Shown: positions 3,064-29,749 of the stretch, piece after piece
Layout of the letters: each line of letters opens with the position of its first letter
How positions within the stretch are numbered: the first letter of the stretch is position 1
Virus record (IMG/VR): IMGVR_UViG_3300046318_000318
Length of the DNA: 64,000 nucleotides
Reading direction: 5' to 3' (one strand)
Source of the DNA: a virus
Lineage: Duplodnaviria; Caudoviricetes
Translations under genes and position numbers: made by a program
The notes under the pieces: model-generated
Database searches by the model: none
What the model saw: the letters and a program-made list of their open reading frames with translations, nothing else
What the model was told of the DNA's origin: nothing

Positions 3064-3130
3064 AAGTTCCTCTTTTTAAAAGTTGATTAAGCTCTTTGAG
3101 ACAGAGCGGTCAATTAAAGTATGTGTGACT
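3061..3130 (-). promoter_or_regulatory. Promoter-like motif, variant class (TCACACATA-CTTTAA-TTGACC), and leader of the 1837-3063 gene
   Basis: Shares the TCA..-N6-TTGA core with copies at 3291, 12817, 19351 and 58337; leader contains hairpin GCTCT-N7-AGAGC. Confidence 0.5.
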
Positions 3131-3151: not shown

Positions 3152-3198
3152 AAAAAAAAAATAACACCCCCGGCCTGTAAGGGCTAGGGGTGTTAATT
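3152..3198. terminator. Intrinsic terminator, repeated CACCC..GGCC/GGCT..GGGTG family
   Basis: GC-rich hairpin with a long T tract on the minus strand; nearly identical to 18839-18883. Confidence 0.8.
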
Positions 3199-3208
3199 TA
3201 CGCCTCGA

Positions 3209-3223
3209 TCACGCTCCAGCCAT
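3209..3223 (-). pseudogene. 4-codon mini-ORF (MAGA*) in an otherwise complete expression cassette; probable deleted-gene remnant
   Basis: TAAGGAGATAATC-ATG GCT GGA GCG TGA, followed about 15 nt later by the terminator. Confidence 0.5.
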
Positions 3224-3306
3224 GATTATCTCCTTAACTGATAGTGTCGTAGAAAGAACGACTTAAACTACAGCGATAGCTCAAATAGAATATATGTGAT
3301 TGAAAT
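3221..3306 (-). promoter_or_regulatory. Conserved putative early promoter + hairpin leader + RBS, copy A
   Basis: TCACATATA-TTCTAT-TTGA-GC-TATCG-CTGTA-GTTTAA-[GTCGT-N7-ACGAC]-ACTATCAGT-TAAGGAGATA-ATC-ATG; collinear with copies B and C. Confidence 0.7.
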
Positions 3307-3332
3307 TATTTACAAGAACTTATTTAGAAAAA

Positions 3333-12109: not shown

Positions 12110-12751
12110 TCAGCAGAGCACAGGCTGCTGAGAAGCTTTGAACTTCTCACGCATAGCTTGTACTCGCTCTTCTAACGACTCCAGAATTTCTGGATGGCCC
12201 AGAAGAGTGTCCGTCATTACCTGACGAATTTCCATCAAAGCGTAATACGCTTGTTGGAAACCAACCACAGATGCTGCGTAAGCATCTGCTTCCAGCTCAA
12301 AACGTTGAACGGATTTTGTTAATCCAGCATTTTCAAGACGGAACATATGCTGGTCTTTGAGATGGCCAAACTCATGTTCCGTGATGAACCTCAGTGTCTC
12401 TTCGGTATAGAGACCTTTCATGGTCAATACCAGATCGACCTTACCGATCGACATGGTCATCCCACCACCGAAATTTTTAACAAGCTCTGTGAGGTTTGTC
12501 ACAAAGACTTTCCCTGTTACAGGATGTCTTACCATAGTGGTCAGCCAATACCAATTTGGCATCTCGACCCACTTCACTTTTCTCCCGTTAGGGAGCTTGG
12601 CGGTCTTGCACCACCAAGTGGTGCAGCAGATGGTCAGGACAAGCCTGACCACTTGACTCTCCTTCAACCGGTCCCCGAACAGGGACCAACCGGTGGTCAA
12701 AGCCACAGCCGTGAAGAAAGTAACGCCAAGTACCAAAGAAAACTGTTCCAT
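12110..12751 (-). CDS. Membrane-anchored zinc metallopeptidase-like protein (M48/HtpX-type zincin)
   Basis: HEFGH (HExxH) plus downstream ELEADAYA; hydrophobic N-terminus. True start is ATG 12751 after TAAGGAG, not 12769. Confidence 0.7.
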   Translation of the reverse strand: MEQFSLVLGVTFFTAVALTTGWSLFGDRLKESQVVRLVLTICCTTWWCKTAKLPNGRKVKWVEMPNWYWLTTMVRHPVTGKVFVTNLTELVKNFGGGMTMSIGKVDLVLTMKGLYTEETLRFITEHEFGHLKDQHMFRLENAGLTKSVQRFELEADAYAASVVGFQQAYYALMEIRQVMTDTLLGHPEILESLEERVQAMREKFKASQQPVLC

Positions 12752-12830
12752 AACTATCTCCTTAGTCACAAGTTCGAAAGATGTTTCGATTAAACTGTAA
12801 CGATAGTCAAGTTAAGTATATGTGACCAAA
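12749..12830 (-). promoter_or_regulatory. Conserved putative early promoter + hairpin leader + RBS, copy B
   Basis: TCACATATA-CTTAAC-TTGA-C-TATCG-TTACA-GTTTAA-[TCGAAA-CATC-TTTCGA]-ACTTGTGAC-TAAGGAGATA-GTT-ATG. Confidence 0.7.
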
Positions 12831-14870: not shown

Positions 14871-15431
14871 TCATCTTCTCCTATAGGTGATGAAGTTATA
14901 TGTTAATAAGCCCTCACCTGTGAAGATAGGTGTTTGACTTTCCAGTTTAAAAAGATCATGAGGTACGGTAGGTACATAGACCGCATCCGTGAACATGTCT
15001 ACAAGATGTTGATGGTTCTTATAGATTTGTGTCAGATGTATAACATCTGCGTATTTAAATCCTTCATTGACAATCAGATCTCTACCGCCTATGATAAACA
15101 GCTTAGAGTCTTTACCCGTACGAGGGTTATTAGCAGTGAGTTTTAAAGCTTTGAACGCTTTGATGTATTCAACAGGATCACTTACTTTAAAAGTGAGTAA
15201 AGTGTTTACATTTTCATCTATGGGAATATCCCTAGATGTAACTATTGCATTTACACGATCTGGTAGAGATTTACCTATAGAGTCAAAGGTTTTTCTACCC
15301 ATCAAGACAGTTTCAAAAATAGTCATATCTTTGAAACGTTTGAGATCAGCAGATAGTTTCCAAGGGATCTTACCATCGATCCCTATAAGACCATCTACAT
15401 CCCTGGCGTAAATAAGTTCTACTGATGGCAT
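14871..15431 (-). CDS. folA: Dihydrofolate reductase
   Basis: GLIGIDGKIPWKLSADLKRFK, LMGRKTFDSIG, LPDRVN, FIIGG motifs; immediately downstream of thyA. Confidence 0.95.
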   Translation of the reverse strand: MPSVELIYARDVDGLIGIDGKIPWKLSADLKRFKDMTIFETVLMGRKTFDSIGKSLPDRVNAIVTSRDIPIDENVNTLLTFKVSDPVEYIKAFKALKLTANNPRTGKDSKLFIIGGRDLIVNEGFKYADVIHLTQIYKNHQHLVDMFTDAVYVPTVPHDLFKLESQTPIFTGEGLLTYNFITYRRR

Positions 15432-15432
15432 G

Positions 15433-15729
15433 TTAAGTAGCTACCGGGTAAGGTATGTGTGGATGTGGGTCGTATCCTTCCAGTTCAATATCTTCAGATT
15501 TGATCTTAAAGATATCTGTCTCGTCTGTTTTAAAGACAAGTCGTGGAAGAGATCTGGGCTCACGAGAGATTTGTTCATCTACCAAATGCAATTGATCTGT
15601 GTAGATATGTGTATCTCCAGTAGACCAAATGAACTCATTAGGTTCCATATCAACATGTCGGGCAATCAAATGCAACAGCAATGAATACTGAGCTATGTTG
15701 TAAGGGCTCCCTATAGGTGTATCGACTGA
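15433..15729 (-). CDS. thyA: Thymidylate synthase, exon 2
   Basis: SVDTPIGSPYNIAQY, GDTHIY, YPVA motifs; joins exon 1 in frame as QR|SVD after intron removal, giving 381 aa. Confidence 0.92.
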   Translation of the reverse strand, partial: SVDTPIGSPYNIAQYSLLLHLIARHVDMEPNEFIWSTGDTHIYTDQLHLVDEQISREPRSLPRLVFKTDETDIFKIKSEDIELEGYDPHPHIPYPVAT

Positions 15730-16861
15730 CATTAATTAACTTCGGTGTGGTAAAACCAATCTTTGTATTTATCCTTTTTAACCCTGTGTGTCACTAAACC
15801 TTGCGATATTTTGAAATATCTAGAAGCATCAGCACATGAGTTAAAAAGAATTCCACCTGCAAATACCTTACGAGTGTTTGTTGGTGGGATACCTATTCTG
15901 TTTTCCCTAAGTTTTCTTTTTGTTTCTTCAGTATGTTTTCTATTGAAGAAAGAATTCTTAGAACCGGTTCTTAAACGTTGACGTGCTCTGATTTTTTCAA
16001 TTTGTTCTTCAGAAAGTTTACAACCTTTGTTGTAGCTATGACCTTTATGCATTAAAGATATAAGCTTTCTGGTTTCAACTGAATGTTGTCTTCCAAACAT
16101 TCCATTAGCTGAACCATTTTTACCCCAAAGGTTTTTTCTTTCTAAAACAGACATTGACGCTATATTTTTAGCTTGTGTTTTGTTTCTTCTGTCTAATATG
16201 TCATCACGTTTTGGATGATTAGATAAAGAATTGCCAAATTTAGAATTTAAACTTATATTAGCCAGTAGGTTTTTATTCAGACCTGTGTATGACTTTATTA
16301 TAAGCTTTTCCTCTAATTGAAAAGCTTCTTCCCTAGAACTACACGGAATAGAGGAAACTTTATAATCAGTTCCTTCACACCATGCTTCTTGTAAACGCAG
16401 ATTATGGTGATTGTTTCTTTTCAACGACCTAAAATGAGTTCGAAGTCTTTTCTTTAAATTTGACGTACTACCTATATAAAACACACCTGTTTTTGTTAAT
16501 GTGAGTATATAAACACAAAAATCATTACTGTTCATATAGATTCCTCGTTAGGATTACCATATAATGAACACAGCACTGCTTTACATCTCTGTAAAGATAG
16601 ATCATATCACCACCTTCAGCCTTACCTGTTAAGGGTTCCCCGTTTCGAAGCGATTCACATCGGTTCTACGTCTTTCGACTGATCGTTGAACTTTCTCCAG
16701 TTTAAAGGAGCTTAGCTGCTGATTGTCTCTACCTACTAATTTTCAAACACGTTACGTATGTGTTTTCACACTCCGCTTTGGTTTAGTAGTCTAACAAGGG
16801 TTTCCAGCAATTAGAGGAATTTTCAAATAGGTATTTCTACCTATACAGCGCTCAGTTATTA
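15730..16861 (-). mobile_element. Group I self-splicing intron (IA-like) in thyA, 1132 nt
   Basis: P1: exon CAGCGU pairs with intron GCGCUG (U.G at the splice site). P10: ACUGA pairs with exon-2 UCAGU. Core elements AAUUGCUGGAAA, AAUCAGCAG, GAUCA/UGAUC (P7), UUCCUC/GGGGAA (P3). Terminal G at 15730. Confidence 0.92.
15732..16535 (-). CDS. Intron-encoded GIY-YIG homing endonuclease (I-TevI/I-BmoI-like)
   Basis: CVYILT...FYIGSTSNLKKR catalytic motif; NUMOD3-like repeats (RQHSVETRKLIS, RKHTEETKRKL); C-terminal HTH-like segment; GAGGA RBS. Confidence 0.92.
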   Translation of the reverse strand: MNSNDFCVYILTLTKTGVFYIGSTSNLKKRLRTHFRSLKRNNHHNLRLQEAWCEGTDYKVSSIPCSSREEAFQLEEKLIIKSYTGLNKNLLANISLNSKFGNSLSNHPKRDDILDRRNKTQAKNIASMSVLERKNLWGKNGSANGMFGRQHSVETRKLISLMHKGHSYNKGCKLSEEQIEKIRARQRLRTGSKNSFFNRKHTEETKRKLRENRIGIPPTNTRKVFAGGILFNSCADASRYFKISQGLVTHRVKKDKYKDWFYHTEVN

Positions 16862-17710
16862 ACGCTGGAACATAAGTAGGTTCAAACGCTTCTTACCACC
16901 TTCATTGAGAGCAGGTTGTACAAAGCATTGGAACATAACATGGCATGGTGCCAAAGCACCCATACCCAACAATACATTCAGATCAGGAGAAATCTTATTG
17001 TCAGGAATGAATTGTGGTAACCATGAGCTTACCACAAGACGTGAAGAATAAGGATTGTTTTTCAGTTCAGCCAGAAGAATACCTAATTGATCTACCTTAG
17101 AGACATAAGTCTTCTGAATGAAATCAGTCTCTGTGACGGGATCTGTTCCATCATCTTCTGCTTCTTTATAAGCAAGATATTCTTTATAAGCTTCTTTAAA
17201 AGCTTCTACTTTATCAGAAGGAATATCTTCGATAGGTGGTTTGTTTCTGAGAAGTTGGTGAATGTTACTCATCTCATCAGCAGGGGCATGGCGCCAGTTA
17301 AAGCCGTACAAAGGACCGATAGATCCGATACGCTCACTGATCTGTTCACGAAGTTTAGCCATGAGCATTTCATTACCGGCCATACTCTGACGATCTTCTT
17401 CTGATTCAAACTTAGACAAGAAATATTCCATGAACTTATCCACTGTTTTTTCAGTGACAGCCCAGTTATCCCAGATATGCACATTTGCTTCATTCAGCAA
17501 AGTGTTATCAATCTCACCAGCGATAAACCAAAGCAATTCTTCTTTCATACCTCGAAAGAAGATCTTACGAGTAGTGACCAAAGGAAAACCATCACTCATG
17601 TTGAATCGGACTTGTCTACCGAAGATAGATCGACGACCTACGCCGGTACGATCGGGATGATCATGTCCATTGTCACGGATATCCTTGAGGAGTTCTATAT
17701 AAGTCTTCAT
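16862..17710 (-). CDS. thyA: Thymidylate synthase, exon 1
   Basis: DRTGVG, FPLVTTRK, ELLWFIAG, GPLYG, LAPCH (catalytic Cys); ends at MFQR followed by the intronic TAA. Confidence 0.93.
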
Positions 17711-17716
17711 GGTGGT

Positions 17717-18040
17717 TTATATGTTTTTAAAGATGATGTAAGAACCAAGACTGATGATTATCCAAGACAACAACATCAGCCAATAAATCATTTTCTCTCT
17801 TTGGTCTAACAGATAGCTTATGTCATCTTTAAGATCCAAAAGCTGATTAAGATCAGCAAGTTGAGATTCAATTTCAACGATGTCTGATGTCAGAGCATCT
17901 ATTTTCTTGTAACTCTGATTGATTCTTGTGTCTATACGTTTGCTATCTTTACCAATAGCAGCTTTAAGACCAGCCATAGATCTCTGCAGAGATGTTACAT
18001 CTACACCCACGTCAGCTTTATAACGATGATGTCTGGACAT
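17717..18040 (-). CDS. Small coiled-coil protein with C-terminal transmembrane helix
   Basis: Heptad-like Leu/Ile pattern then IYWLMLLSWIIISLGSYIIF. Confidence 0.65.
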   Translation of the reverse strand: MSRHHRYKADVGVDVTSLQRSMAGLKAAIGKDSKRIDTRINQSYKKIDALTSDIVEIESQLADLNQLLDLKDDISYLLDQREKMIYWLMLLSWIIISLGSYIIFKNI

Positions 18041-18042
18041 AG

Positions 18043-18330
18043 TTAGTTAAAGTAAAGATTGACGACAAGAGCTGCAAAAATAGAACTTGTTATCGCCAGT
18101 GCAATAAGCATTCTTCTGACATTATCCAGCTGTTCCTGAAGAGCGTAGACGCTATTGCCCAATGATTCTAGTTTGAGGTTGGTACCTGCTTCAACAGTCG
18201 ACGCGTTGGTTTGGAGAATTATCAGCTTCGACTCCAGGTCTGTGATAGCTTTATTCAATTCTTCTTTACTAGCTGCTAAAGGTTTAGTTGTGGTGTTGCC
18301 GTTTGCTTCTTCAATAATGAGGTTTTCCAT
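18043..18330 (-). CDS. Small coiled-coil protein with C-terminal transmembrane helix
   Basis: Heptad pattern then MLIALAITSSIFAALVVNLYF; AAGGA RBS. Confidence 0.65.
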   Translation of the reverse strand: MENLIIEEANGNTTTKPLAASKEELNKAITDLESKLIILQTNASTVEAGTNLKLESLGNSVYALQEQLDNVRRMLIALAITSSIFAALVVNLYFN

Positions 18331-18340
18331 GATTGTTTCC

Positions 18341-18802
18341 TTAGGTTAAAAAACGTTTCCATTCATAAGGCATCCAGCATCTCTCTATGCCTTTAAACAT
18401 AGGAGCTATCTGCTCATGCTTATATCCAGCTAACCCTGTGCCTACCGCTGTGACAAAAAAAGTTTTGTCTTTGAGTATAGTGGTTACTATTCTAAAGGTC
18501 TCTACTCTTTTCTCTATTTCTTCTAGCGGTAGAGGTTGCAGCATATGTGACTTAGTAGGTAAGGCATAACAGTTACCCATTCTACCCTCACCTACACCGT
18601 AGATAGCTCCATAGTCTGTAGCAGCTTTAAGAGCAGCACCTTTACCATGTCTACCAGCTAGGTTAGAACCAAATACAAAAAGTATACTTGGGTAGAGGAT
18701 AATGTTGTTCTCAGGAAAGTAATATTTGACACCTTTTTCAATAGGTAGAAGTACAGTGTCATACTTCTTCATCATCTCAAAATCTATTTCAAAATTTGAC
18801 AT
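18341..18802 (-). CDS. Macro-domain-like protein (A1S_2505-type phage family)
   Basis: FVFGSNLAGRHGKGAA, YALPTK, FFVTAVGTGLAG motifs. Confidence 0.7.
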   Translation of the reverse strand: MSNFEIDFEMMKKYDTVLLPIEKGVKYYFPENNIILYPSILFVFGSNLAGRHGKGAALKAATDYGAIYGVGEGRMGNCYALPTKSHMLQPLPLEEIEKRVETFRIVTTILKDKTFFVTAVGTGLAGYKHEQIAPMFKGIERCWMPYEWKRFLT

Positions 18803-18838
18803 ATTTGTTTTCCATAATCAAAAAATGAAAGCTGTGAA

Positions 18839-18883
18839 TAAAAAAATAACACCCCCGGCCTGTGAGGGCTAGGGGTGTTATTT
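18839..18883. terminator. Intrinsic terminator, repeated family
   Basis: ATAACACCCCCGGCCTGTGAGGGCTAGGGGTGTTA, one base different from the 3161-3195 core. Confidence 0.85.
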
Positions 18884-18884
18884 A

Positions 18885-19283
18885 TCAAGCTTGATGTGTG
18901 ATCCAAGCTTGAAGAGCCTGACCCATGGCCAGCTCTTCAGCACGTCCTGATCTCACATCAGGGAACTTTACATGGACCATGAACCACTTGATCGTGGCTC
19001 CTTCGGGCAATGTGGTTGCCCCTTCGGGCAGTCGTGGTCCAGAATATTGACCAACAATGATTGTCTCATTGCTGGTCAGGTCCACGGTCACCCGTGCAGC
19101 GGGGATTTCCACCCCCAGCTGCTGAGAAAATACAGAAGCTGTGTCGGCATGACCGACACAGCTTTCCACCCCTACCTCCAAAAACTCCTTGACTTCAGCC
19201 GGAGTGATTTGGATCACTTTGATGTCGGCGATGAGCGCCGACACCATGTTGAGACTGAAAGCGTTGCAAATTTTAATTGCCAT
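18885..19283 (-). CDS. acrIII-1: DUF1874 / AcrIII-1-like ring nuclease (anti-type III CRISPR), STIV B116/YddF family
   Basis: NAFSLNM, VGHADTA (catalytic His), conserved Arg in ARV, and Q..GPRLPEG; order and spacing match SIRV1 gp29 as I recall it. Confidence 0.82.
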   Translation of the reverse strand: MAIKICNAFSLNMVSALIADIKVIQITPAEVKEFLEVGVESCVGHADTASVFSQQLGVEIPAARVTVDLTSNETIIVGQYSGPRLPEGATTLPEGATIKWFMVHVKFPDVRSGRAEELAMGQALQAWITHQA

Positions 19284-19366
19284 GAGTATCCCCTTAACCA
19301 GCAGTGTTACAGATGTGTAACTTAAACCACTAGCGATATCTCAAGTTAAGTTTATGTGATTGAAAT
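19281..19366 (-). promoter_or_regulatory. Conserved putative early promoter + hairpin leader + RBS, copy C
   Basis: TCACATAAA-CTTAAC-TTGA-GA-TATCG-CTAGTG-GTTTAA-[GTTACA-CATC-TGTAAC]-ACTGCTGGT-TAAGGGGATA-CTC-ATG. Confidence 0.7.
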
Positions 19367-19380
19367 ATTCTCTAAGGGAT

Positions 19381-19420
19381 ATAAGAGATATCCTACCCTT
19401 AAGGGTAGGATATCTCTTAT
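19381..19420. repeat. Perfect 40-bp palindrome at the end of the endolysin gene
   Basis: ATAAGAGATATCCTACCCTT-AAGGGTAGGATATCTCTTAT. Confidence 0.9.
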
Positions 19421-20106
19421 TCTTGAAAAGCTATTTTGTACTTAGGTAACTTAAGCTGTAGAACATCGTGTACGTGATGTCTATTGATATCGCAAGCAGA
19501 TCTTAATCCGTATAAAGCTTTCTTGCTTTTTAAACAATAGTTCTCTACGTTATTGAACCACTTGGTAGAATCACAACCCTTAGCCAATCCACAAGCTCTA
19601 CGCTCATTGAACAACCCACCGATACCGCCATTGTAAGCAGCATCAGCCATGGCTATACGATCCATGTTGTCAGGTATCATAGACAGCTTGTTAAAGTTAG
19701 TCTTAGTTAGCAACACCATAGCTCTGATCTGTAGATCAGGTCTTTGATATACGTTAGACCAACTCAGCTCTTTCAGATCACTATGTCTGGTTTTCATTTC
19801 TGATAACAGATCGAATCTGACAGATCCATCTTGATTATAGGCTTTGGTGATTTGGCCTAAACCTGCTCCTTCTTCTCTGTCTGTTTTAAGACGAGAAGCT
19901 GGATTCCAACATTTACTGTGCTTTAAGCTTATGCAGCTTTCATGTTCTATAAGAGCGCCGAAATATGCTTGAGGTTTAAATCCAGGCATATAAAGATTGG
20001 CTTGATCTTTTACAACAGGGAAATACTGTTTGGCTTGTTCAGGGATGTAAAGACTCTGAGAAAAGGCAAGGGCTGACGTCATGGTGAGAGTCAGCCCTAA
20101 TCCCAT
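19417..20106 (-). CDS. Endolysin, lytic transglycosylase (SLT-like) with signal-peptide-like N-terminus
   Basis: IEHES (catalytic Glu), GAGLGQIT, AAYNGG motifs. Start at 20106 forms a TGATG overlap with the upstream holin-like gene (ORF track gives 20148). Confidence 0.85.
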   Translation of the reverse strand: MGLGLTLTMTSALAFSQSLYIPEQAKQYFPVVKDQANLYMPGFKPQAYFGALIEHESCISLKHSKCWNPASRLKTDREEGAGLGQITKAYNQDGSVRFDLLSEMKTRHSDLKELSWSNVYQRPDLQIRAMVLLTKTNFNKLSMIPDNMDRIAMADAAYNGGIGGLFNERRACGLAKGCDSTKWFNNVENYCLKSKKALYGLRSACDINRHHVHDVLQLKLPKYKIAFQE

Positions 20107-20468
20107 CAGTGCACCGCTGCGAAGATAAGGATGGCGATAGCTAAACATACGACACTCATCGCTATAGCGATTTTACCAGATCCATCTGCTGTCGTGATAG
20201 CTTTCTTAAACACTCGCTCCATGTCGATATAATCGAAAAGAGCTTTGCGTGAAAGATGCAGGATGGCTACGTATACGATAACCTTGAGGGTAATTACGAT
20301 AGTAGCTAATGTAGACCCACCAAAAGGCAGGTTACCAAGGATACCCAGATCAGGATCTGTCAGCATCCAAATAGCTAATACCAGTAAAGAACCCACACCC
20401 ATGTAGTAATGACGAAAACGCATAGAAGGTTCCTTCTTGACTTTAGGTTTCTTAAATAAACCGATCAT
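20106..20468 (-). CDS. Putative holin (three predicted TM helices)
   Basis: Three hydrophobic stretches in 120 aa; translationally coupled to the endolysin. Confidence 0.6.
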   Translation of the reverse strand: MIGLFKKPKVKKEPSMRFRHYYMGVGSLLVLAIWMLTDPDLGILGNLPFGGSTLATIVITLKVIVYVAILHLSRKALFDYIDMERVFKKAITTADGSGKIAIAMSVVCLAIAILIFAAVH

Positions 20469-20477
20469 GCTCTAAAA

Positions 20478-21131
20478 TTAAGCTGCTTGGGTTGAATACT
20501 TCAGTTCAGGAAGCATGGTTGCAAACTCAAGCAGAGTCTTAGGCACAGGCTTAGCACCAGCACGCAACTCATTCTGCATAGTAATGCAGGTGGTCCACAT
20601 CAGATCACGAAGAACAATAAAGTCATTAGCCATACTTGCCCATTCTGGAACTGTAGAGTCTTTATAACTCACCAGAGAAATAACGCTGTCAAAACCGCTG
20701 GATTTGGCAAAGTCGTTCAGGATACCAGAAACATGCTTATCCACAGCAGTGGTCAATGCATCCATATAGCCTTCAGGAGCTGTAGAGATAAACTGATCAG
20801 CCACAGGGGCCACAGGAGAACCAGTGACAGGCAAAGCCATGCCAAAGCTGGTACCGTCCAAAGGACCTGGTATCCGATCACTGCGATTATACATCATGGA
20901 GAACAGATGTTCTAAACCATGATCCACCACGGTGTACTCCACAGCCACCGCATCACCAGCCAACTTCAAAGTCTCTTTGACGTATTGATAGATAGTGGTT
21001 ACAGGACGGACAGGTTTAACCACCTTTTTGTACCAGCTGAAAGGATGAGCGCGATTGCGGATGTGCATTTCATACACGGGGTACTCGATGATTTTGTCGT
21101 TATCGACACGAGCGTAAACGGTTTGTTCCAT
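20478..21131 (-). CDS. Putative tail fibre assembly chaperone
   Basis: Directly follows the fibre gene; LNDFAKSSGFDSVISLVSY...RDLMW resembles phage fibre-chaperone C-termini. Confidence 0.55.
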   Translation of the reverse strand: MEQTVYARVDNDKIIEYPVYEMHIRNRAHPFSWYKKVVKPVRPVTTIYQYVKETLKLAGDAVAVEYTVVDHGLEHLFSMMYNRSDRIPGPLDGTSFGMALPVTGSPVAPVADQFISTAPEGYMDALTTAVDKHVSGILNDFAKSSGFDSVISLVSYKDSTVPEWASMANDFIVLRDLMWTTCITMQNELRAGAKPVPKTLLEFATMLPELKYSTQAA

Positions 21132-21166
21132 TTGAAAATCCTTTTGGAGAAAGTTAAAGAGTTACT

Positions 21167-23125
21167 TTAAGCAAAGATATAGGCTTTGCTGTTTTTAGAC
21201 GCTATAGGTGCCACCACACTATCGCCTGAAAGAGAAACAGAAGTACCAAACTGTTTATTGGCAGCTTTGTCACTTGCAAATAAACGATTACGTTCTACCC
21301 AAGAAACTCCTACCTTACTAAAGATATAAGCTTCACCACATTCAAACATAGAAGGTATGCTTTGCTTAGGAGCACCAACAATCAAAACATTGCCTTCAAA
21401 GTTAGTCTTCATAGATAACCCAAACAGGTTACTCATCAGACCATCAGAAGCCTGTATCTTGTTAGACACGCTCCAACTAGAGCCAGATCTCACGTAGTTA
21501 TACACAGCACCAAATCTCAAAGGAGCTGAACTCTCAGTAAAGGGCTGGCCTGTTGCAGATACAAACATGCTGCTTCCATCACTGTTTATTTCTACGCACG
21601 AACCAAAACTTCCTCTGGAAATATTCTCAGCACCAGCAGGAGAAATTCTTTGCTCCAACAACCAGGACGAGGCACTAGCTACGTAGACATAAGCAGCGCC
21701 AGACTGTTGAATGCTATCGTTAGTTTCACCTGAAGATCCAAAGATGACTCTTAAACCATCGCCGGATACAGCAACTGATTGACCAGCTGAGAAAGGTGGG
21801 CTTGCGGCTATTACGCTATTAGGCAACAGTTTAATCTGTTCTTGCCAAGAAGAACCTGTGCGTTTGTACATAACGCAAGCGCCTATTTTCAAAGCACCTG
21901 AAGAAGTATGTGTTTGACCAGGCGCACCAGCTGCTAATACAGATCCATTTTCAGATAGATCTAAAGACCAACCAAAATAACTGCCTACCTGAGACTCACT
22001 AAAGGTTAACTTAGCTTGTTGGTTCCAGTTGGTTCCTGATCTTGCAAAGATGTAAACAGATCCACTGCTGTTATTGTCATAAGGACATCCCACAGCTATG
22101 GTGTTACCATCTCCGGAAATACCTACGGTGTGTCCAAACATATCGTAAGAACCACCGTCACCAGCCAATAACTTAGAAGACTGTATCCAGTTACTGCCAG
22201 ACTTGGTATAGATCAAAACAGCACCAGCGTCAAAACCATTACTGGTATCTGCAAAATTACCAAATACAACAGTATTACCATTGTCAGACACAGCAACGGA
22301 TACTCTGCTTCTATCTTCAGCCATGTAAGCTTGTATTTCTACAGTAGGTAGATAGCTGTCTTTGGTTCTGAATTGCACAGGTCTTGACCAAATGCTGTCT
22401 GTGTAACCAGAAGCTTTATATCTCACTCTTACCCAGAAGTCTGTGTTTGCTATTAAGCTTGCACTAAAACTGGTTAAGTTACTGTTAGAGTTGTAAGATG
22501 AAGCTACTATGTTAGCCAAACTAAAGTTAGAGTTCGTAGCCACTTCCCAATCAGATTGAGCATGTGTACCAGTGCCGCTATCTACTTCAAAAGGGGAAGA
22601 ATAGAATGTAACACCAGGACCTAAGCTACCAGTACCCATTTGAGGAGCCAATAGCTGGGGTTGTATAACTGCATTGCTACCACTGGCTTTAACAGTAACA
22701 TCTATAGCCCTACCGTTAATTAAAAAACCAGCTTGGCCCACTGCGCCAGGAGCTATATAAGTTATCTCACCTGGATTGGTAGTCGTATTTAAAGTCACAG
22801 TACCTGTAGGGGCTGTGACTGTATAGTCTTTATCACTGCTATAGTCTGTTATTAAGTAAGTATTGGTAGAAGAAATGACTACACTTCTTGGACCTTTAAC
22901 ACTTACAGATAACAAATAAAGAGGTAAAAGATGATTAGGTAAATTACCAGCGTTGTCCAAACGTATAGGTTTGTTGATGTTGTCTATTTCAGATAGAGGC
23001 ACACCACCCAGTTTGATCAACGCATTAGGAGCTGTAGATGCATCAGTACCACCTAAGTCGATACCTACTGTCACACCTGGATCAAAATCCAAACCAGCTC
23101 TTAAGATGCTGCGTTTCATTCCCAT
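21167..23125 (-). CDS. Tail fibre/adhesin with FN3-like domain and FG-GAP beta-propeller repeats
   Basis: About 6-7 repeats of FG..V.ISGDG...AVG....G.VYIF; SDWEV...WVRVRY FN3-like segment. Confidence 0.7.
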   Translation of the reverse strand: MGMKRSILRAGLDFDPGVTVGIDLGGTDASTAPNALIKLGGVPLSEIDNINKPIRLDNAGNLPNHLLPLYLLSVSVKGPRSVVISSTNTYLITDYSSDKDYTVTAPTGTVTLNTTTNPGEITYIAPGAVGQAGFLINGRAIDVTVKASGSNAVIQPQLLAPQMGTGSLGPGVTFYSSPFEVDSGTGTHAQSDWEVATNSNFSLANIVASSYNSNSNLTSFSASLIANTDFWVRVRYKASGYTDSIWSRPVQFRTKDSYLPTVEIQAYMAEDRSRVSVAVSDNGNTVVFGNFADTSNGFDAGAVLIYTKSGSNWIQSSKLLAGDGGSYDMFGHTVGISGDGNTIAVGCPYDNNSSGSVYIFARSGTNWNQQAKLTFSESQVGSYFGWSLDLSENGSVLAAGAPGQTHTSSGALKIGACVMYKRTGSSWQEQIKLLPNSVIAASPPFSAGQSVAVSGDGLRVIFGSSGETNDSIQQSGAAYVYVASASSWLLEQRISPAGAENISRGSFGSCVEINSDGSSMFVSATGQPFTESSAPLRFGAVYNYVRSGSSWSVSNKIQASDGLMSNLFGLSMKTNFEGNVLIVGAPKQSIPSMFECGEAYIFSKVGVSWVERNRLFASDKAANKQFGTSVSLSGDSVVAPIASKNSKAYIFA

Positions 23126-23135
23126 GACACTTACC

Positions 23136-24218
23136 TCAGTTAGACCATTCGTTATGACCGACGATAAACATCGTTTCAGGCGTAATGGCGATGTTGGGAC
23201 TCATCATACAACAAGCCATCATAGCTGCGATCTCATCTGTTTCAACAAAAGAACGCACTGTAATAGTGGTGGACTTAGCCAACACAGGTCCAGTAACACT
23301 TTGTTTACGCAATAAGATTCTGAACCTTTCTTCTTGTTCGCCTTCAAAACCAGGTCTTAAAGATACGTTAAAAGAAGCTCTGCCTGCTGTAATACCTAGA
23401 GGACCAGACAACATGTTAAAATCAGAAGCATCTGTCGTAACGTGTTCTATGGTCCAGAAGAGATTGGTACCGTCTGGTATGTTGGTACAAGAGATAGAAA
23501 CATTCAAGTTGTCATCATTAGACATTATAGTTTTACTATAAGTCCAAGTAACCCCATTGAAGTTAAGCTGATCTAAGGCAAACAACAATTTGTCAAACGT
23601 AACTACTTTTTCAACAGGCAAACTGTTTCTGATTTCTATTTCAGTCACAGCTTCATATCTGTTAGCCATCACCCAGTCTATCAATGCCTGGAATGCAGGT
23701 ACATCAGACAAAGTAATAGCGTTGCGTATGCGTTCAAGTGCTACAATAACAGGTTCAAATCCAACCACATCTTCCAGCATGTGTCTGTGAAGAGTTGGCG
23801 GGTATTCAAAAGGTTTATTTAAAACACTATCCCAAGGTACAGGACGATTGTCATTGATCAAAGTCTGATATAGACTCTCAACACCTTCAGCATTATGCTG
23901 AAACAATCCGCCTAGGACCTGGTAATTAATACGAACAGTAGAAGATACATCCGGTTTCTTAATGAGGATGACCTCACAAATTTCTTTACCGAATCTTAAC
24001 GTTGCTTCTTGCAACATCTGAACGCAGGAATAATCTACGTTCTTTACCAAAGGTGCGTTAGTAACAGTGTCTATAACGACCAACCCATCTGTATAGATAG
24101 GGCCGTAAGTAGGCACCACTGCTTTGACCTGTGTGTTGGCTAAAGTTTTAACTTCGCCAACGACCCTATTGTCTGGATTTAAACCAGTCGGGTCGAGAGG
24201 ATATCTTATCAGCGGCAT
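23136..24218 (-). CDS. Virion structural protein (phiKZ-like baseplate/fibre-attachment family)
   Basis: YPLDPTG.NPDN N-terminus typical of jumbo-phage structural proteins; Calx-beta-like C-terminal segment. Confidence 0.6.
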   Translation of the reverse strand: MPLIRYPLDPTGLNPDNRVVGEVKTLANTQVKAVVPTYGPIYTDGLVVIDTVTNAPLVKNVDYSCVQMLQEATLRFGKEICEVILIKKPDVSSTVRINYQVLGGLFQHNAEGVESLYQTLINDNRPVPWDSVLNKPFEYPPTLHRHMLEDVVGFEPVIVALERIRNAITLSDVPAFQALIDWVMANRYEAVTEIEIRNSLPVEKVVTFDKLLFALDQLNFNGVTWTYSKTIMSNDDNLNVSISCTNIPDGTNLFWTIEHVTTDASDFNMLSGPLGITAGRASFNVSLRPGFEGEQEERFRILLRKQSVTGPVLAKSTTITVRSFVETDEIAAMMACCMMSPNIAITPETMFIVGHNEWSN

Positions 24219-24286
24219 TGAATAACTCCGTTTGCTCTATGGCGACCATTCGATTTGTAGTTTAAACAGATCGTTTTACATCATAA

Positions 24287-24320
24287 GTTATAGAGTCGGT
24301 CCTAGGACCGACTCTATAAC
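24287..24320. repeat. Perfect 34-bp palindrome (terminator-like)
   Basis: GTTATAGAGTCGGTCCT-AGGACCGACTCTATAAC. Confidence 0.9.
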
Positions 24321-24328
24321 CATGACGA

Positions 24329-24847
24329 TTACTCTAATTCACTTTCGACAGCAGAAATCAAAAGACATGGATCGTATCTCCATGCATCTTTATAACCCAA
24401 CGCCATAGCGCAAATTTCAGAGCAAATAGTTTTACTCTTAGTATCACGCATCAGGAAGTTGATGTATCCAGATATCAATTTGTAATCATAACAAGATCCT
24501 TCATACTTACGAAATATTTCCGCAGCCGCGATAGGATTTTTACCTGATACATCTAAAATGATCCACTTAGACGGAGAAGGTTTGATTCGTTTGAATCTTA
24601 CACCACCAAACTTATTGGCTCGCCTGTTAGAGTAGAAAGGCATACGATCCATTCCACTACTAGAAGCACACCAATAACCATCTTCATTAGGTTCTAGATT
24701 ACCATCTGGCATGTATTGTTCTACACCGTCGCCTGGTTCAAACATAATCTCGGTATGAGAATATTTACCGTTTAAACGAAAGCGAATAAGTCTATCCACC
24801 AAACCAGATAGACCTTTGCCGGTGCCTTTAAATCCCAACAGTTTCAT
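24329..24847 (-). CDS. Permuted papain-like (NlpC/P60, YiiX-type) amidase/peptidase
   Basis: YSHTEI (His) precedes YDY and ICSEICA (Cys), the permuted order. Confidence 0.65.
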   Translation of the reverse strand: MKLLGFKGTGKGLSGLVDRLIRFRLNGKYSHTEIMFEPGDGVEQYMPDGNLEPNEDGYWCASSSGMDRMPFYSNRRANKFGGVRFKRIKPSPSKWIILDVSGKNPIAAAEIFRKYEGSCYDYKLISGYINFLMRDTKSKTICSEICAMALGYKDAWRYDPCLLISAVESELE

Positions 24848-24858
24848 TTAAGACTCAC

Positions 24859-27800
24859 TTATATAGATGCAGCTATAGCTACAGCTGTTTCAGCAGACGT
24901 CTTAGCACCCAACAAGTTATTCTCAGCTGTCAATCCGTTAGCTTGACTGAATGACCATACAGCAGCTGCAAAGTCATTGAGTGTATACACAGGTTGATTG
25001 TCGAGTTTATAGGTTCTCACAGACCTTGCTTTAAAGTCAATAGAACCGTTGGTCTCGTCATCAGGAGAGGCGTTGGGCTGGCCATCCACCACAGGCAGGG
25101 CATCTATACCAGCGCTTGTATAAGACAGAGAGCCTCTTCTGAATCTCCAGTTAGTAGGAAGAAGCAAATCGGTACCGTCAAATCTAAGCACTTCAGGGTA
25201 TCTCATACCCAAAGGAGTAGCTTGCCATTCAGCAATCACATCGTAAACATCTTCTGCGATAGCCTTACCATTACCGATATCGATACGTAAGTCTGTCGGA
25301 GAAAGAGTCACTAAGTGTTTGGTGGTGTTAGGACCTCGTCCAAAGACAGGTTGTCCAAAACCATCCTTATTTTCTTGCTGCGCTACAGGTATGCTGATCT
25401 CAACAAGGTTATCAAATACCAGAGAAAGTGTGTCGTAGCCTTTCTTGCGAATTTCTAATCTGCACTTCAGTCTGGCTTCATCATATTCGTAGACAAGTTT
25501 AGCACTTGTGGCTACGTTCTCCACTATAGTCAACGGTTGAGCACCAGGTGCTGCATTTTCATCAAAAACAGCCACTGTAGATCCAGCTACTAAACCCGAA
25601 AGAGTAAGTTCAGCTTCATCTAAAGGATACAGGGCTGCATTCTGTAAGGCAAGAGTAGTAGTTCCGTCTATACGGAATGCATCTAGTCTGTTTGTGAGGG
25701 CTGAAGTAACAGCAGCTATCTTAACAGAAAGCTTAAATCCATTTACTGGATCTATTGCTTCACTAGCCAGATTGGTAGGACTACAAGTTTTCCACACACC
25801 CGTAAAACCAGAACCTGTGTCTAAATCATACTCGTAAGAATGATTATTGACATTGATGCCTTGAGGAGTGCTGGAAGTCAATCCAGTCCATCCCAATATC
25901 TTCCAAGGCCATGTCCAGATGATAGAATCGCCCACAGTGTTCATAACCACGGCACCCTGGCTGGTAAATTCTGGCGTACCAGTAGCTACATAAGAACTAC
26001 CTGTATTGTTTGTCTTTTCGACAAATACCAAAGCAGCTCTGGCGGTGGTATCGCTTGTGAAGCTATCCCACATACAAGTACCGTAAACAGACAGATAAGA
26101 CATAGGTACACTACCGCCATTACCACGATTACCATGGTAATAAGATTCAAGCTGTTGAGGACCAATGGTCTTGGTTGCGTCTACTGTGTAGTTATTAACC
26201 ATCTCTAAGCCCTTGGTGGTGTTAGTACCACTAGAGATAGAGTTATTAAGAGCCGTTACCCAATTGCGTTTAACTTTAATGGTGTCGTTGTTACCACCAT
26301 CAGAAAAGATATACTTCATTAAGTTAATGGTACCGGCATTAAACGGTGCTGCTGCGGTGCCTGTATTTCTAAACTTAAGTTTCTTTCCACTGTTGGCAAA
26401 GAACAACCCGTTTAAAGGATGTGTATTAGGAGCATCTGGCCAGTTACATGTATTTGCAGAAACACAATCTTCACTCATGCCAGTGTATTCAATAGCATGT
26501 GTTGCTTGTGTTGTGCCTGTGGTGCCTAAAGGCACATCTGCATATGTGTGTTTAAGAATACGAAGCTTCTTACACGACATCACCAATATACGTTTAGTGG
26601 TAGTCAGAGCGTGTTCTATAAGTAGATCAGGACATGTGTTGATCTGAATAGCGCCGCTAATGGCAGTGGCCGGTCCTACGTTACCAGCTCTTACTTGTTT
26701 AAAGGTCCACTTACCATACAAGTTAACCAACACCATTGGGTAGCCACTTAAGCTGTTAGATTTCATTCTGAGAGCAGAAATGTTACCTACCTTACCACCG
26801 AAATAATTTTGCTGAAACAGAATACCGTAACCGTCAGCATATGTACCGCTGTAGTTACTAAGACCTTGATGAAGGTCGTCGATATCTGGCTCAGAATAGA
26901 TCTCCTGGATGACGGCTTGATCGGCGCAGTGTATGTGCCGCATGTAACAAGTATATGCCTGAGCCACTGTCCAAAACCAATCGCCAGTTACCCATTCAGC
27001 AGTCAAATTACCAGCACTTGTAAAGATACTCTTATATCTTTGCGACATGTTGGTGTCGGGTAATTTATTAACATTAAACGCTGTGTTGTTACTGGTTTGT
27101 GTGATAATAGTAGGTATTCTGATTTTACAACCGGACAATGGCATATGACCACACGGTTGGCCATCCAAACCCATACCTATAGTTAACACACCTGTATTAG
27201 AGATATGTACGTTGTTACATCTAGAATCTAAAGAATGATTAGCAGATGTGAAACTATTAGCAGCATTGGGCCAGAACGTGTAAGTATCACTTCCTGGGCT
27301 ATCTTCTATTTCTACGCCAGGATAGGCTATTATAGATTCAGCCACTATGTATGGCAACTGATGAGTTTGACCTCTGGAACCTGTGGTTAAACCTATTTCA
27401 AAAGGGTGTCCTTTAAAGACACAAGTACCTAACCTAGGATGGCTATGGCCTTTTTGCTCAACACCTGTAATAAAGATCCAGCCTTGCTCATCAGCAGCTA
27501 TGGCATTGCATCCGATGCCTGAAATAGAACCAGCTGTAAAATCACCACTGATTTTTCTTACTTTCAGATAACCAGATGTTGGCATGGGTTGACCAGGGGT
27601 ATAAACTATTCCTCCAGTCCTGGCTGACATCACTAATAGTAACTGCCCGTCTGCACCAGCTTGAGACAATGTAGTTTCATATGCAGGTACAGTGCCAGAC
27701 CCACCGTTGAAAGGTATGAGTCTGCACTGAGTAGTATCTACTCTAAAGTTACCAGCCAAAGAAGCTGACACTGTGATGCTTCCAAAAGGACAAGTGTTAC

Positions 27801-29695: not shown

Positions 29696-29749
29696 TTGAA
29701 ATCCTTAATATTAAAGAGAGGTACCTTACCCCCATCTGATAATAGGTAT

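What the first reader, a model, noticed from the sequence alone, without database searches (positions are those of the whole stretch)
18885..19283. AcrIII-1-like ring nuclease in a nucleus-forming jumbo phage
Seen: all hallmark DUF1874 motifs (NAFSLNM, GHADTA, R, Q..PRLPEG), a ~27-aa C-terminal extension, and a dedicated early cassette with its own terminator. Established: AcrIII-1 proteins degrade cyclic tetra-adenylate and neutralise type III CRISPR signalling; the phage nucleus blocks DNA-targeting CRISPR but not RNA-targeting type III systems. Inference: this gene covers the main known gap in nucleus-based protection, giving layered shell-plus-signal-destruction immunity evasion. I cannot check whether this pairing has already been reported.
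Basis: partly seen in the sequence, partly recalled or inferred. Interest (0 to 1): 0.88.

Follow-up and report, generated by a model that had tools for sequence, protein, structure and literature searches.

The report
Ring-nuclease anti-CRISPR cassette in giant phage
An uncultured freshwater giant phage of the phiKZ (nucleus-building) type carries a small self-contained gene for an AcrIII-1-type enzyme that should destroy cyclic tetra-adenylate, the alarm molecule of type III CRISPR, which is the one CRISPR type known to get past the phage nucleus.

Summary
ORF 18885-19283 (-) encodes a 132-aa member of the DUF1874/AcrIII-1 family: Pfam scores above its cut-off, the fold matches only AcrIII-1/Crn2 structures (Z 14-15), and the catalytic His and seven of eight cA4-contact side chains are conserved. 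A homodimer is predicted. Residues 107-132 are a real extra helix under moderate constraint.

The gene is a self-contained unit: a promoter-like block, a covarying 5' hairpin, a strong ribosome-binding site, the ORF and a terminator. The same promoter block heads the operon holding a non-virion RNA polymerase subunit gene, which supports early expression.

The window is clearly phiKZ-like (capsid, internal head proteins, both split RNA polymerases). No chimallin or PhuZ lies in it, so nucleus formation is inferred.

Homologues occur in four divergent uncultured phiKZ-like lineages, one 2.3 kb from a chimallin gene. The cassettes recombine between phages. No deposited phage genome of jumbo type has a homologue, nor do 17 chimallin-positive IMG/VR contigs.

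Enzyme activity and anti-CRISPR effect are untested. AcrIII-1 is cA4-specific and would not stop cA3/NucC immunity. A 2025 survey already mentions "anti-CRISPR III" genes in six nucleus-forming phages. This is a new member of a known kind, of moderate interest.

The parts
18966..19283 (-). AcrIII-1/DUF1874 core domain, residues 1-106. Catalytic H45; cA4-contact positions N7, S10, N12, T48, R64, Q79 and R84.
   Evidence: Pfam PF08960 32.5 bits against a cut-off of 26. PDB sequence hits 2j6b, 2x4i and 6scf with residue alignment. AF2 model pLDDT 87. Foldseek top 17 hits are all AcrIII-1/Crn2. VIA Z 14.4-14.7 over model residues 1-106. These residues are invariant in 59 homologues. dN/dS 0.04-0.17.
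18885..18965 (-). C-terminal extension, residues 107-132 plus the stop codon. Predicted amphipathic helix at 114-131 with conserved core GRAEELA.GQ.LQAW.
   Evidence: No counterpart in any solved family member. Helix predicted at lower confidence, pLDDT 58-74. Present in homologues P0001-P0007 and absent from P0008-P0010 and most others. dN/dS 0.24-0.56. Not part of the confident dimer interface.
19341..19361 (-). Promoter-like block AATCACATAAACTTAACTTGA (clade consensus about RTCACATATACTTNAAYTGA), 58 nt upstream of the ATG.
   Evidence: Four copies in the window against 0.52 in shuffles; all are intergenic, on the coding strand and upstream of genes. Eight copies on one strand and none in the reversed control in a 120-kb relative. 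Also conserved upstream of the DUF1874 gene of a phage whose capsid is only 37% identical.
19297..19334 (-). Two-tier hairpin in the 5' leader.
   Evidence: RNAalifold on 9 leader copies. 97.4% of cells paired against 18-48% in slid controls; 8 of 13 pairs change on both sides.
19286..19295 (-). Ribosome-binding site TAAGGGGATA (TAAGGAGATA in other leader copies), 2 nt before the ATG.
   Evidence: Conserved block at the 3' end of all leader copies.
18838..18879 (-). Intrinsic terminator: hairpin AACACCCC...GGGGTGTT followed by a T-run.
   Evidence: Terminator scan. A near-identical copy lies at 3163-3194. It is identical downstream of the non-syntenic L008 copy and is also found upstream of that cassette. 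phiKZ terminators share a similar CCCC...GGGG TTAT motif (PMC10914365).
19383..19418 (-). Long perfect hairpin at the end of the upstream endolysin-like gene; it insulates the cassette from upstream transcription.
   Evidence: Read directly from the sequence. Conserved in the syntenic relatives.
3163..3314 (-). Second copy of the leader, followed only by ATG-GCT-GGA-GCG-TGA and the same terminator hairpin: an 'empty cassette' or a small RNA gene.
   Evidence: nhmmer E 6e-24. Sequence read. Hairpin copy found.
3110..3130 (-). Promoter-like block heading the operon 1837-3063 / 181-1818; the second gene is the homologue of phiKZ nvRNAP subunit gp123.
   Evidence: for the motif. for homology to gp123 (E 1.5e-52). 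gp123 is a subunit of the non-virion RNA polymerase, which is made from early genes (PMC8287921; PMC7598289).
12807..12827 (-). Promoter-like block with a weaker leader copy upstream of gene 12110-12769 (weak M48-peptidase-like match).

Best explanation
The ORF encodes a catalytically competent homodimeric AcrIII-1-type ring nuclease. It binds cyclic tetra-adenylate (cA4) at its dimer interface and cleaves it by in-line attack of the 2'-OH, with H45 acting as general acid. It is carried by an uncultured freshwater phiKZ-like phage, presumed to build a nucleus. It sits on its own transcription unit, driven by a phage-RNA-polymerase promoter of the class that also drives a non-virion RNA polymerase subunit gene, so it is probably made early. 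The enzyme would work in the cytoplasm, where Cas10 detects exported phage mRNA and makes cA4. There it would remove the signal before CARF or SAVED effectors (Csx1/Csm6, Can1/2, Cam1, CalpL and similar) are activated. This would blunt the arm of type III CRISPR that a DNA-shielding shell cannot stop. What is shown: family membership, conserved active-site and ligand residues, the fold, a predicted dimer, purifying selection, the cassette anatomy, and recurrence and recombination among phiKZ-like phages. What is inferred: cA4 cleavage, early timing, nucleus formation by this phage, and the in vivo anti-CRISPR effect.
For: Family and fold: PF08960 above its cut-off. The top 17 Foldseek hits are all AcrIII-1/Crn2. 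VIA Z is 14.4-14.7 against 3.0 for the next unrelated chain. Residues, mapped from SIRV1 gp29 via the 2x4i/6scf alignment and the contact list in 10.1101/778746: H47->H45, N8->N7, S11->S10, N13->N12, T50->T48, R66->R64, Q81->Q79, R85->R84. All are invariant or nearly invariant in 59 homologues. The protein is 44% identical to the THSA-485A protein, which abolished cA4-dependent immunity experimentally. Homodimer: ipSAE 0.69 against a best control of 0.01; this mark was reached by 20 of 30 proteins solved as pairs of one chain and 1 of 23 solved as single chains; the interface includes residues 8-12 and 77-81. Core dN/dS is 0.04-0.17. Phage type: PhiKZ_MCP 593 bits and divDNAB 368 bits; three phiKZ_IP proteins; a homologue of vRNAP subunit gp80; a homologue of nvRNAP subunit gp123. 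The closest cultured relative, FLC9, encodes chimallin. A 74%-identical cassette lies 2.3 kb from a chimallin gene on a 201-kb contig. Timing: the promoter block is shared with the gp123-like operon. In these phages the bioinformatically detectable upstream motif has always proved to be the early promoter, and nvRNAP genes are early. Metatranscriptome contigs cover the whole ORF but not the three genes downstream. Type III immunity through a cA4 effector (TtCsm6) protects against a nucleus-forming phage.
Against: No enzymology has been done. One SIRV1 contact, S49, is D47 here, although D is the rule in this clade. Chimallin and PhuZ were not found in the window, in 120 kb of a close relative, or in about 5.5 kb beyond either end of the window. 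The host is unknown, and so is whether it has a cA4-type type III system. The natural Serratia-PCH45 case uses cA3/NucC, which is outside AcrIII-1 specificity. SIRV2 gp37 shows that a ring nuclease may not act as an Acr in its native setting if it is expressed late, and that it can have another role. A syntenic natural variant (P0007) has lost the catalytic His and S10 yet stays under purifying selection, which hints at a second function. RNA-library coverage could be DNA carry-over.
Confidence: 0.62

Rival explanations
1. The protein's main selected role in these phages is not signal destruction. It acts instead through a binding function, such as a cA4 sponge or an inhibitor of a host protein, as reported for SIRV2 gp37 with a host lysine methyltransferase. 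The added C-terminal helix would be the interaction surface.
For: The SIRV2 gp37 precedent. The natural syntenic variant P0007 carries H45V plus an in-frame loss of S10, occurs on five contigs, and still has core dN/dS of 0.04-0.17. The extension helix is constrained (dN/dS 0.24-0.56) but lies outside the dimer interface and has no structural counterpart.
Against: The window protein and nearly all relatives keep the complete catalytic and ligand-binding set. Short forms without the helix occupy the same locus in sister phages, so the helix is dispensable for whatever keeps the gene there.
Confidence: 0.15
2. It is an active cA4 ring nuclease, but its target is a cA4-using defence other than type III CRISPR, for example CBASS-like or other SAVED/CARF effector systems.
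For: The host and its defence repertoire are unknown. Jumbo phages are already known to counter cyclic-nucleotide signalling in general; phiKZ Tad1 is an example.
Against: Every experimentally characterised role of this family concerns type III CRISPR cA4. I tested nothing that points to another source of cA4.
Confidence: 0.1
3. It is a neutral passenger of a mobile promoter-ORF-terminator cassette and gives this phage no current benefit.
For: The cassette is mobile and recombining. An apparently empty cassette exists at 3163-3314. The gene is absent from cultured jumbo phages and from 17 chimallin-positive contigs.
Against: Strong purifying selection. Retention in four lineages whose capsids are only 37-47% identical. 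Presence across many freshwater samples.
Confidence: 0.05

Closest known systems
AcrIII-1 of Thermoanaerobacterium phage THSA-485A (DUF1874), shown to abolish cA4-dependent type III immunity (10.1101/778746)
   Same: 44% identity over 102 residues. Same Pfam family. A bacterial-phage origin, a stand-alone small gene, and the same catalytic His and cA4-contact set.
   Different: The window protein has 26 extra C-terminal residues that form a predicted helix. Its carrier is a phiKZ-like jumbo phage rather than a 42-kb phage. The window protein has not been assayed.
SIRV1 gp29 (PDB 2X4I, and 6SCF with cA4); STIV B116 (2J85); AFV3-109 (2J6B)
   Same: Same fold: Z 14.4-14.7, rmsd 1.9-2.3 A over 100-106 residues. 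H47, N8, S11, N13, T50, R66, Q81 and R85 are all conserved. A dimer is predicted through the equivalent surface.
   Different: Only 21-25% identity. S49 is D47 here. The lid region carries a duplicated LPEGAT motif typical of the bacterial clade. The extra helix at 114-131 is absent from all solved members.
Crn2 and Csx1-Crn2 fusion (Marinitoga, PDB 8Y7F/8Y7G)
   Same: Same domain fold: Z 13.3-13.4.
   Different: Crn2 is a host-encoded regulator, fused to or adjacent to CRISPR effectors. The window gene is phage-borne, with no cas genes nearby.
The 'anti-CRISPR III' genes reported in 6 of 406 chimallin/PhuZ-encoding phages (PMC12625630, BMC Genomics 2025)
   Same: The same general pairing: a nucleus-forming phage with an anti-type III gene.
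   Different: That report is a single sentence based on an automated anti-defence finder. The text I could read does not name the Acr family and gives no residues, structure, cassette, promoter or evolutionary analysis. I could not check whether their phages overlap the freshwater lineages found here.
Tad1 of phiKZ (a cyclic-nucleotide sponge against CBASS and Thoeris)
   Same: A jumbo-phage counter to a nucleotide second messenger that the shell cannot block.
   Different: Tad1 has an unrelated fold, acts as a sponge rather than a nuclease, and targets different signals and defence systems.

Membership tests
AcrIII-1 / DUF1874 (Pfam PF08960) ring nucleases | Sequence match to the family profile above the curated threshold | tested here: met
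   32.5 bits against a cut-off of 26, E 9.7e-8, covering profile positions 3-87 of 101. phrog_5063 E 8.7e-14.
AcrIII-1 / DUF1874 (Pfam PF08960) ring nucleases | The family's distinctive non-CARF fold | tested here: met
   AF2 model with pLDDT 87.3 and pTM 0.77. The top 17 Foldseek PDB hits are all family members. VIA Z 14.4-14.7, with the next unrelated chain at 3.0.
AcrIII-1 / DUF1874 (Pfam PF08960) ring nucleases | The absolutely conserved catalytic histidine (H47 of SIRV1 gp29) | tested here: met
   H45 in GHADTA aligns with H47, and with A47 in the 6scf mutant. It is invariant in 59 homologues.
AcrIII-1 / DUF1874 (Pfam PF08960) ring nucleases | cA4-contacting side chains N8, S11, N13, S49, T50, R66, Q81 and the lid arginine R85 | tested here: met
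   N7, S10, N12, T48, R64, Q79 and R84 are conserved. S49 is D47, which is at least 90% D in this clade. Seven of eight are identical.
AcrIII-1 / DUF1874 (Pfam PF08960) ring nucleases | A homodimer with the ligand site at the interface | tested here: met
   This is a prediction only. ipSAE is 0.69 against a best control of 0.01; the mark was reached by 20 of 30 proteins solved as pairs of one chain and 1 of 23 solved as single chains. The interface is residues 8-12, 14, 16-25, 77, 79, 81, 99, 101 and 103. The result may partly reflect the model's memory of solved family dimers.
AcrIII-1 / DUF1874 (Pfam PF08960) ring nucleases | Specific cleavage of cA4 to A2>P | not testable with these tools
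   Requires purified protein and an HPLC, LC-MS or TLC assay.
AcrIII-1 / DUF1874 (Pfam PF08960) ring nucleases | Anti-CRISPR activity in infection, which requires early expression (caveat from 10.1101/2023.01.10.523387) | tested here: inconclusive
   The promoter block is shared with the operon of the nvRNAP gp123 homologue. Conserved upstream motifs in these phages have so far always been early promoters. RNA-library contigs cover the ORF. There are no time-resolved data.
Chimalliviridae (nucleus-forming phiKZ-like phages) | phiKZ-type major capsid protein and internal head proteins | tested here: met
   PF25620 at 593 bits. PF12699 in three proteins. The best cultured relative is FLC9 at 42.5% identity.
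Chimalliviridae (nucleus-forming phiKZ-like phages) | Two split multisubunit RNA polymerases (virion and non-virion) | tested here: met
   A gp80 (vRNAP) homologue at 61987-63318. A gp123 (nvRNAP) homologue at 181-1818, E 1.5e-52.
Chimalliviridae (nucleus-forming phiKZ-like phages) | Chimallin (ChmA, PF25677) shell protein | tested here: inconclusive
   Not found in the window, in 120 kb of a close relative, or in about 5.5 kb beyond each end. The model does detect phiKZ (1121 bits) and FLC9 (166 bits). Roughly 100 kb of the genome was out of reach. A homologous cassette lies 2.3 kb from chimallin in another phage.
Chimalliviridae (nucleus-forming phiKZ-like phages) | PhuZ tubulin | tested here: inconclusive
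   tblastn with phiKZ PhuZ finds nothing in the window. The rest of the genome was not searched.
DUF1874 RNA motif (Weinberg et al. 2017, PMC5737381) | A multistem structure in consecutive intergenic regions flanking DUF1874 and other ORFs | tested here: not met
   No Rfam family matches the leader at gathering thresholds or at E up to 10. The leader here is a single two-tier hairpin. Only the arrangement in consecutive intergenic regions is similar.

The most novel reading that the evidence does not exclude
Freshwater phiKZ-like phages may keep a standardised, swappable early-gene cassette made of a vRNAP promoter block, a covarying 5' hairpin, a fixed ribosome-binding site, an ORF and a clade-typical terminator. 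Such cassettes would move accessory and anti-defence genes between co-infecting phages. The AcrIII-1 gene would be one cargo: it is found at non-syntenic sites, it is recombined within the gene itself, and an emptied cassette sits elsewhere in the genome. Its lineage-specific C-terminal helix and the naturally His-less variants would point to a second, non-catalytic activity, such as sponging or effector binding.
Probability: 0.25. Interest if true: 0.7.

Novelty: new member of a known kind. Interest (0 to 1): 0.55.

Why it matters
Type III CRISPR, together with Cas13, is the established weak point of the phage nucleus, because phage mRNA has to leave the shell. A 2026 review states that Tad1 is the only anti-defence protein described so far in jumbo phages. 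A 2024 comparative study found no verified Acrs in ChmA/PhuZ phages. Here, four divergent natural phiKZ-like lineages keep a ring nuclease with an intact active site, under strong purifying selection, and apparently behind an early promoter. That argues that cA4-based type III signalling is a real selective pressure on these phages in nature. It also supplies a concrete gene for testing shell-plus-signal-destruction evasion. The result is relevant to phage therapy with phiKZ-like phages and to the idea that ring nucleases push hosts towards cA3 or cA6 effectors. It is not a new mechanism: the enzyme family is well known and widespread in phages.

Tried and rejected
- **Parent record:** I looked for it with megablast of 15000-25000 against 50,697 phage records (no match) and with an exact 40-mer in IMG/VR (no match).
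- **Chimallin hunt:**
  - The 652-aa ORF at 21167-23125 is an FG-GAP repeat protein.
  - phiKZ gp54 and PhuZ tblastn find nothing in the window.
  - The 120-kb relative has no PF25677 match.
  - The 612-aa gene just beyond the left end is not chimallin: no Pfam hit, and hhalign probability 0.2%.
  - A metagenome scan returned 13 chimallin loci, none linkable to this phage.
  - Walking rightward gained under 1 kb per step, so I stopped.
- **GC content as evidence of recent transfer (rejected):** the gene is 51.9% GC against 40.6 +/- 4.4% for the window's genes, but the capsid gene is equally high. The gene is also 57-59% GC in every lineage, whether the background is 40% or 51%. High GC is a property of this gene clade.
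- **Leader as the published DUF1874 RNA motif (rejected):** no Rfam hit.
- **Recurring hairpin as an attC-like site (not supported):** phiKZ terminators share a similar conserved hairpin, and no integrase was seen.
- **NCBIfam:** no model matches the protein.
- **Empty-site relative:** I searched for a relative lacking the cassette between the endolysin-like and 153-aa genes, and only the same IMG/VR relative came back.
- **Sigma-70 promoter scan:** nothing upstream of the gene, as expected for a phage that does not use host RNA polymerase.

Full report
**Observation**

The minus-strand ORF at 18885-19283 is real and encodes 132 aa.

The match to Pfam PF08960 (STIV_B116-like, formerly DUF1874) scores 32.5 bits against a curated cut-off of 26. 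The ORF also matches phrog_5063 (E 8.7e-14). A sequence search of the PDB finds AFV3-109, SIRV1 gp29 (2x4i, and 6scf with cA4) and STIV B116. The large protein collection holds 885 homologues, all carrying PF08960.

**Family membership**

The founding AcrIII-1 paper (10.1101/778746) gives the defining features: the absolutely conserved general-acid His47, the lid Arg85, and cA4 contacts from N8, S11, N13, S49, T50, R66 and Q81. In the phmmer alignment to 2x4i/6scf these map to H45, R84, N7, S10, N12, D47, T48, R64 and Q79. Only S49 differs, and D is the norm at that position in this bacterial/phage clade. H45, N7, S10, T48, R64, Q79 and R84 are invariant across 59 homologues, and N12 and D47 are at least 90% conserved.

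An AF2 model (pLDDT 87.3) matches only AcrIII-1 and Crn2 structures. The top 17 Foldseek hits are all family members. VIA-align gives Z 14.4-14.7 for 2j6b, 6scf, 2x4i and 2j85, and 13.3-13.4 for Csx1-Crn2. The next unrelated chain scores Z 3.0.

A homodimer is predicted with ipSAE 0.69 against a best control of 0.01. In the tool's calibration that mark was reached by 20 of 30 proteins solved as pairs of one chain and 1 of 23 solved as single chains. The interface includes residues 8-12 and 77-81, which hold cA4-contact positions. This is a prediction and may partly reflect the model's memory of solved family dimers.

The closest experimentally characterised relative is the THSA-485A protein, at 44% identity over 102 residues. 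That protein abolished cA4-dependent but not cA6-dependent type III immunity. Cleavage of cA4 by the window protein is therefore very likely, but it has not been shown.

**The C-terminal extension**

Structural alignment places model residues 1-106 over the whole solved domain, so residues 107-132 are a true addition. They are predicted as a helix at 114-131 with lower confidence.

The extension occurs only in the closest homologues, P0001-P0007. Sister phages carry 107-109-aa forms at the same locus. Comparing four long-form genes, dN/dS is 0.24-0.56 in the extension and 0.04-0.17 in the core. The extension is thus translated and moderately constrained. It is not part of the confident dimer interface, and its role is unknown.

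**The cassette**

The gene is insulated on both sides. Upstream, a long perfect hairpin sits at the end of the preceding endolysin-like gene (about 19383-19418). Downstream, an intrinsic terminator lies at 18838-18879.

Between them is a 92-nt leader with three parts:
- a promoter-like block at 19341-19361;
- a two-tier hairpin at 19297-19334;
- a fixed ribosome-binding site.

The hairpin is supported by covariation across nine copies: 97.4% of cells are paired against 18-48% in slid controls, and 8 of 13 pairs change on both sides.

A 74%-identical gene on a 201.5-kb contig (L008) sits in a completely different neighbourhood but shares the leader and an identical terminator. There the terminator flanks the cassette on both sides.

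The window holds a second strong leader copy at 3224-3314. It is followed only by a four-codon ORF and the same terminator hairpin, so it is an apparently empty cassette.

The short-form gene of a syntenic sister phage is a recombinant. Its first ~120 nt are 93-98% identical to the window, and the rest is 90-100% identical to the non-syntenic L008 copy. A DNA run shows the same 3' replacement. These cassettes therefore move and recombine among co-circulating phages.

The leader is not the published DUF1874 RNA motif, since no Rfam family matches it. The recurrent terminator resembles the conserved terminator class described for phiKZ.

**Expression timing**

Timing matters because SIRV2 gp37 fails as an Acr in its native setting when it is expressed late.

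The promoter-like block (consensus about RTCACATATACTTNAAYTGA) occurs four times in the window against 0.52 expected by chance. All four copies are intergenic, on the coding strand, and 38-218 nt upstream of a start codon. A 120-kb relative has eight copies on one strand and none in the reversed-pattern control. The block is recognisable even upstream of the DUF1874 gene of a phage whose capsid is only 37% identical.

One copy, at 3110-3130, heads the operon that contains the homologue of phiKZ gp123 (E 1.5e-52). gp123 is a beta-like subunit of the non-virion RNA polymerase, which is made from early genes. In every RNA-polymerase-encoding jumbo phage studied so far, the conserved upstream motif that can be found bioinformatically has proved to be the early promoter recognised by the virion polymerase.

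This is indirect but coherent support for early expression. In addition, metatranscriptome contigs cover the whole ORF but not the three genes downstream. That is only suggestive, because DNA carry-over cannot be excluded.

**Is the phage nucleus-forming?**

The window is unmistakably phiKZ-like:
- PhiKZ_MCP at 593 bits and divDNAB at 368 bits;
- three phiKZ internal head proteins;
- homologues of vRNAP gp80 and gp77 and of nvRNAP gp123.

The closest cultured relative is Burkholderia phage FLC9, at 42.5% capsid identity. FLC9 encodes a chimallin detectable with PF25677.

However, no chimallin or PhuZ is present in the window, in a 120-kb relative record that extends about 97 kb past the left end, or in about 5.5 kb beyond either end. 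Nucleus formation by this phage is therefore an inference. It rests on family membership and on a homologous cassette lying 2.3 kb from a chimallin gene in another phage. Earlier notes on the same genome place a gp55-like nvRNAP gene about 20 kb past the window. I did not verify those notes.

**Distribution**

The phage comes from freshwater metagenomes and recurs in many samples. DUF1874 genes occur in four divergent uncultured phiKZ-like lineages:
- the window clade;
- L008;
- L018, a 207-kb contig with capsid 37% identical to the window's;
- L059, with capsid 47% identical.

In three of these lineages the gene lies in the same ThyA ... divDNAB-MCP-RNR neighbourhood.

By contrast, tblastn of all 50,697 deposited phage records finds the family only in THSA-485A, a fusellovirus and a Methanobacteriales virus, and in no cultured jumbo phage. 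None of 17 chimallin-positive IMG/VR contigs has a PF08960 match, five of them at least 90% complete, and the positive control rang. The gene is thus an accessory trait of a freshwater subgroup and not a family-wide feature.

**Prior knowledge**

No paper in the library links Chimalliviridae with AcrIII-1, Crn2 or ring nucleases. A 2026 review calls Tad1 the only anti-defence protein described in jumbo phages. A 2024 study found no verified Acrs in ChmA/PhuZ phages.

However, PMC12625630 (2025) states that 6 of 406 chimallin/PhuZ phages carry an 'anti-CRISPR III' system. The pairing has therefore been noted, without detail.

**Limits of the interpretation**

AcrIII-1 is specific for cA4. Natural Serratia type III immunity against phage PCH45 acts through cA3 and NucC. 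The same study showed that a cA4 effector (TtCsm6) also protects. The gene would therefore close only the cA4 part of the gap.

**Verdict**

This is a genuine and probably active AcrIII-1-type ring nuclease on a mobile, probably early, cassette in a phiKZ-like phage. It is a new member of a known kind. It has ecological and arms-race interest, but it is neither a new mechanism nor the first mention of the pairing.

Noticed in passing
window 15433-17710 (-): thyA exons 16859-17710 and 15433-15732; intron core 16579-16871; ORF 15732-16535: The thymidylate synthase gene is split by a group I intron (Rfam RF00028, 67.4 bits). The intron carries a GIY-YIG/NUMOD3/I-TevI-type homing endonuclease gene. 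Relatives have the intron with or without the endonuclease, or an uninterrupted thyA (L017). Parts of the intron also match L008.
   Followed up: partly
window 3163-3314 (-): An 'empty cassette': a full-strength copy of the leader (promoter block, hairpin, ribosome-binding site), then only ATG-GCT-GGA-GCG-TGA and the clade terminator. It could be a relic of a deleted cargo gene, a small RNA, or a landing site.
   Followed up: partly
L009:7495-7890 (protein P0007; also L010 and L011): A syntenic long-form homologue has GVADTA instead of GHADTA (loss of the catalytic His through a multi-base codon change) and an in-frame deletion of the cA4-contact Ser in NAFSLNM. Its core is still under strong purifying selection. 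It may be a non-catalytic, sponge-like or moonlighting variant.
   Followed up: partly
L005:4400-4729 compared with window and L008: Mosaicism within the gene: the 5' ~120 nt are window-like (93-98% identical) and the remainder is L008-like (90-100%). The breakpoint is near the conserved GHADTA-coding stretch.
   Followed up: yes
window 17717-18330 and 19417-20468 (-): The cassette sits inside a co-oriented string that looks like a lysis module. It includes an endolysin-like protein with an N-terminal signal-like segment (19417-20148, phrog_669), a multi-TM 120-aa protein (20106-20468), and two small coiled-coil proteins with C-terminal TM segments (18043-18330 and 17717-18040).
   Followed up: no
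window 21167-23125 (-): A 652-aa FG-GAP repeat protein (PF14312, E 1.5e-42). Its nearest phage relatives are in Vibrio phage nt-1 and cyanophages, where such proteins are annotated as virion structural proteins. It is chimallin-sized but is not chimallin.
   Followed up: partly
window 12110-12769 (-): A gene with a weaker copy of the same leader and promoter block encodes a protein with a weak M48 peptidase match. Its orthologue in a relative has a faint Peptidase_U49 (Lit-like) hit on record.
   Followed up: no
L008:1429-2280: On the chimallin-bearing 201-kb contig, about 8 kb upstream of the DUF1874 cassette, a 283-aa product has a weak precomputed hit to PF26125 (AcrVA2-like). This may be another anti-CRISPR-related gene in a nucleus-forming phage.
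   Followed up: no
window 28964-29821 (+) and 30496-31080 (-): Two other genes of unknown function with unusually high GC (53.7% and 52.0%, against a gene mean of 40.6%). Neither has a Pfam match.
   Followed up: no
window 18341-18802 (-): The gene immediately downstream of the cassette belongs to the 'A1S_2505 family phage non-structural protein' (NCBIfam NF049995, 122.5 bits; phrog_2072). Its function is unknown, and it is conserved next to the cassette in all syntenic relatives.
   Followed up: no
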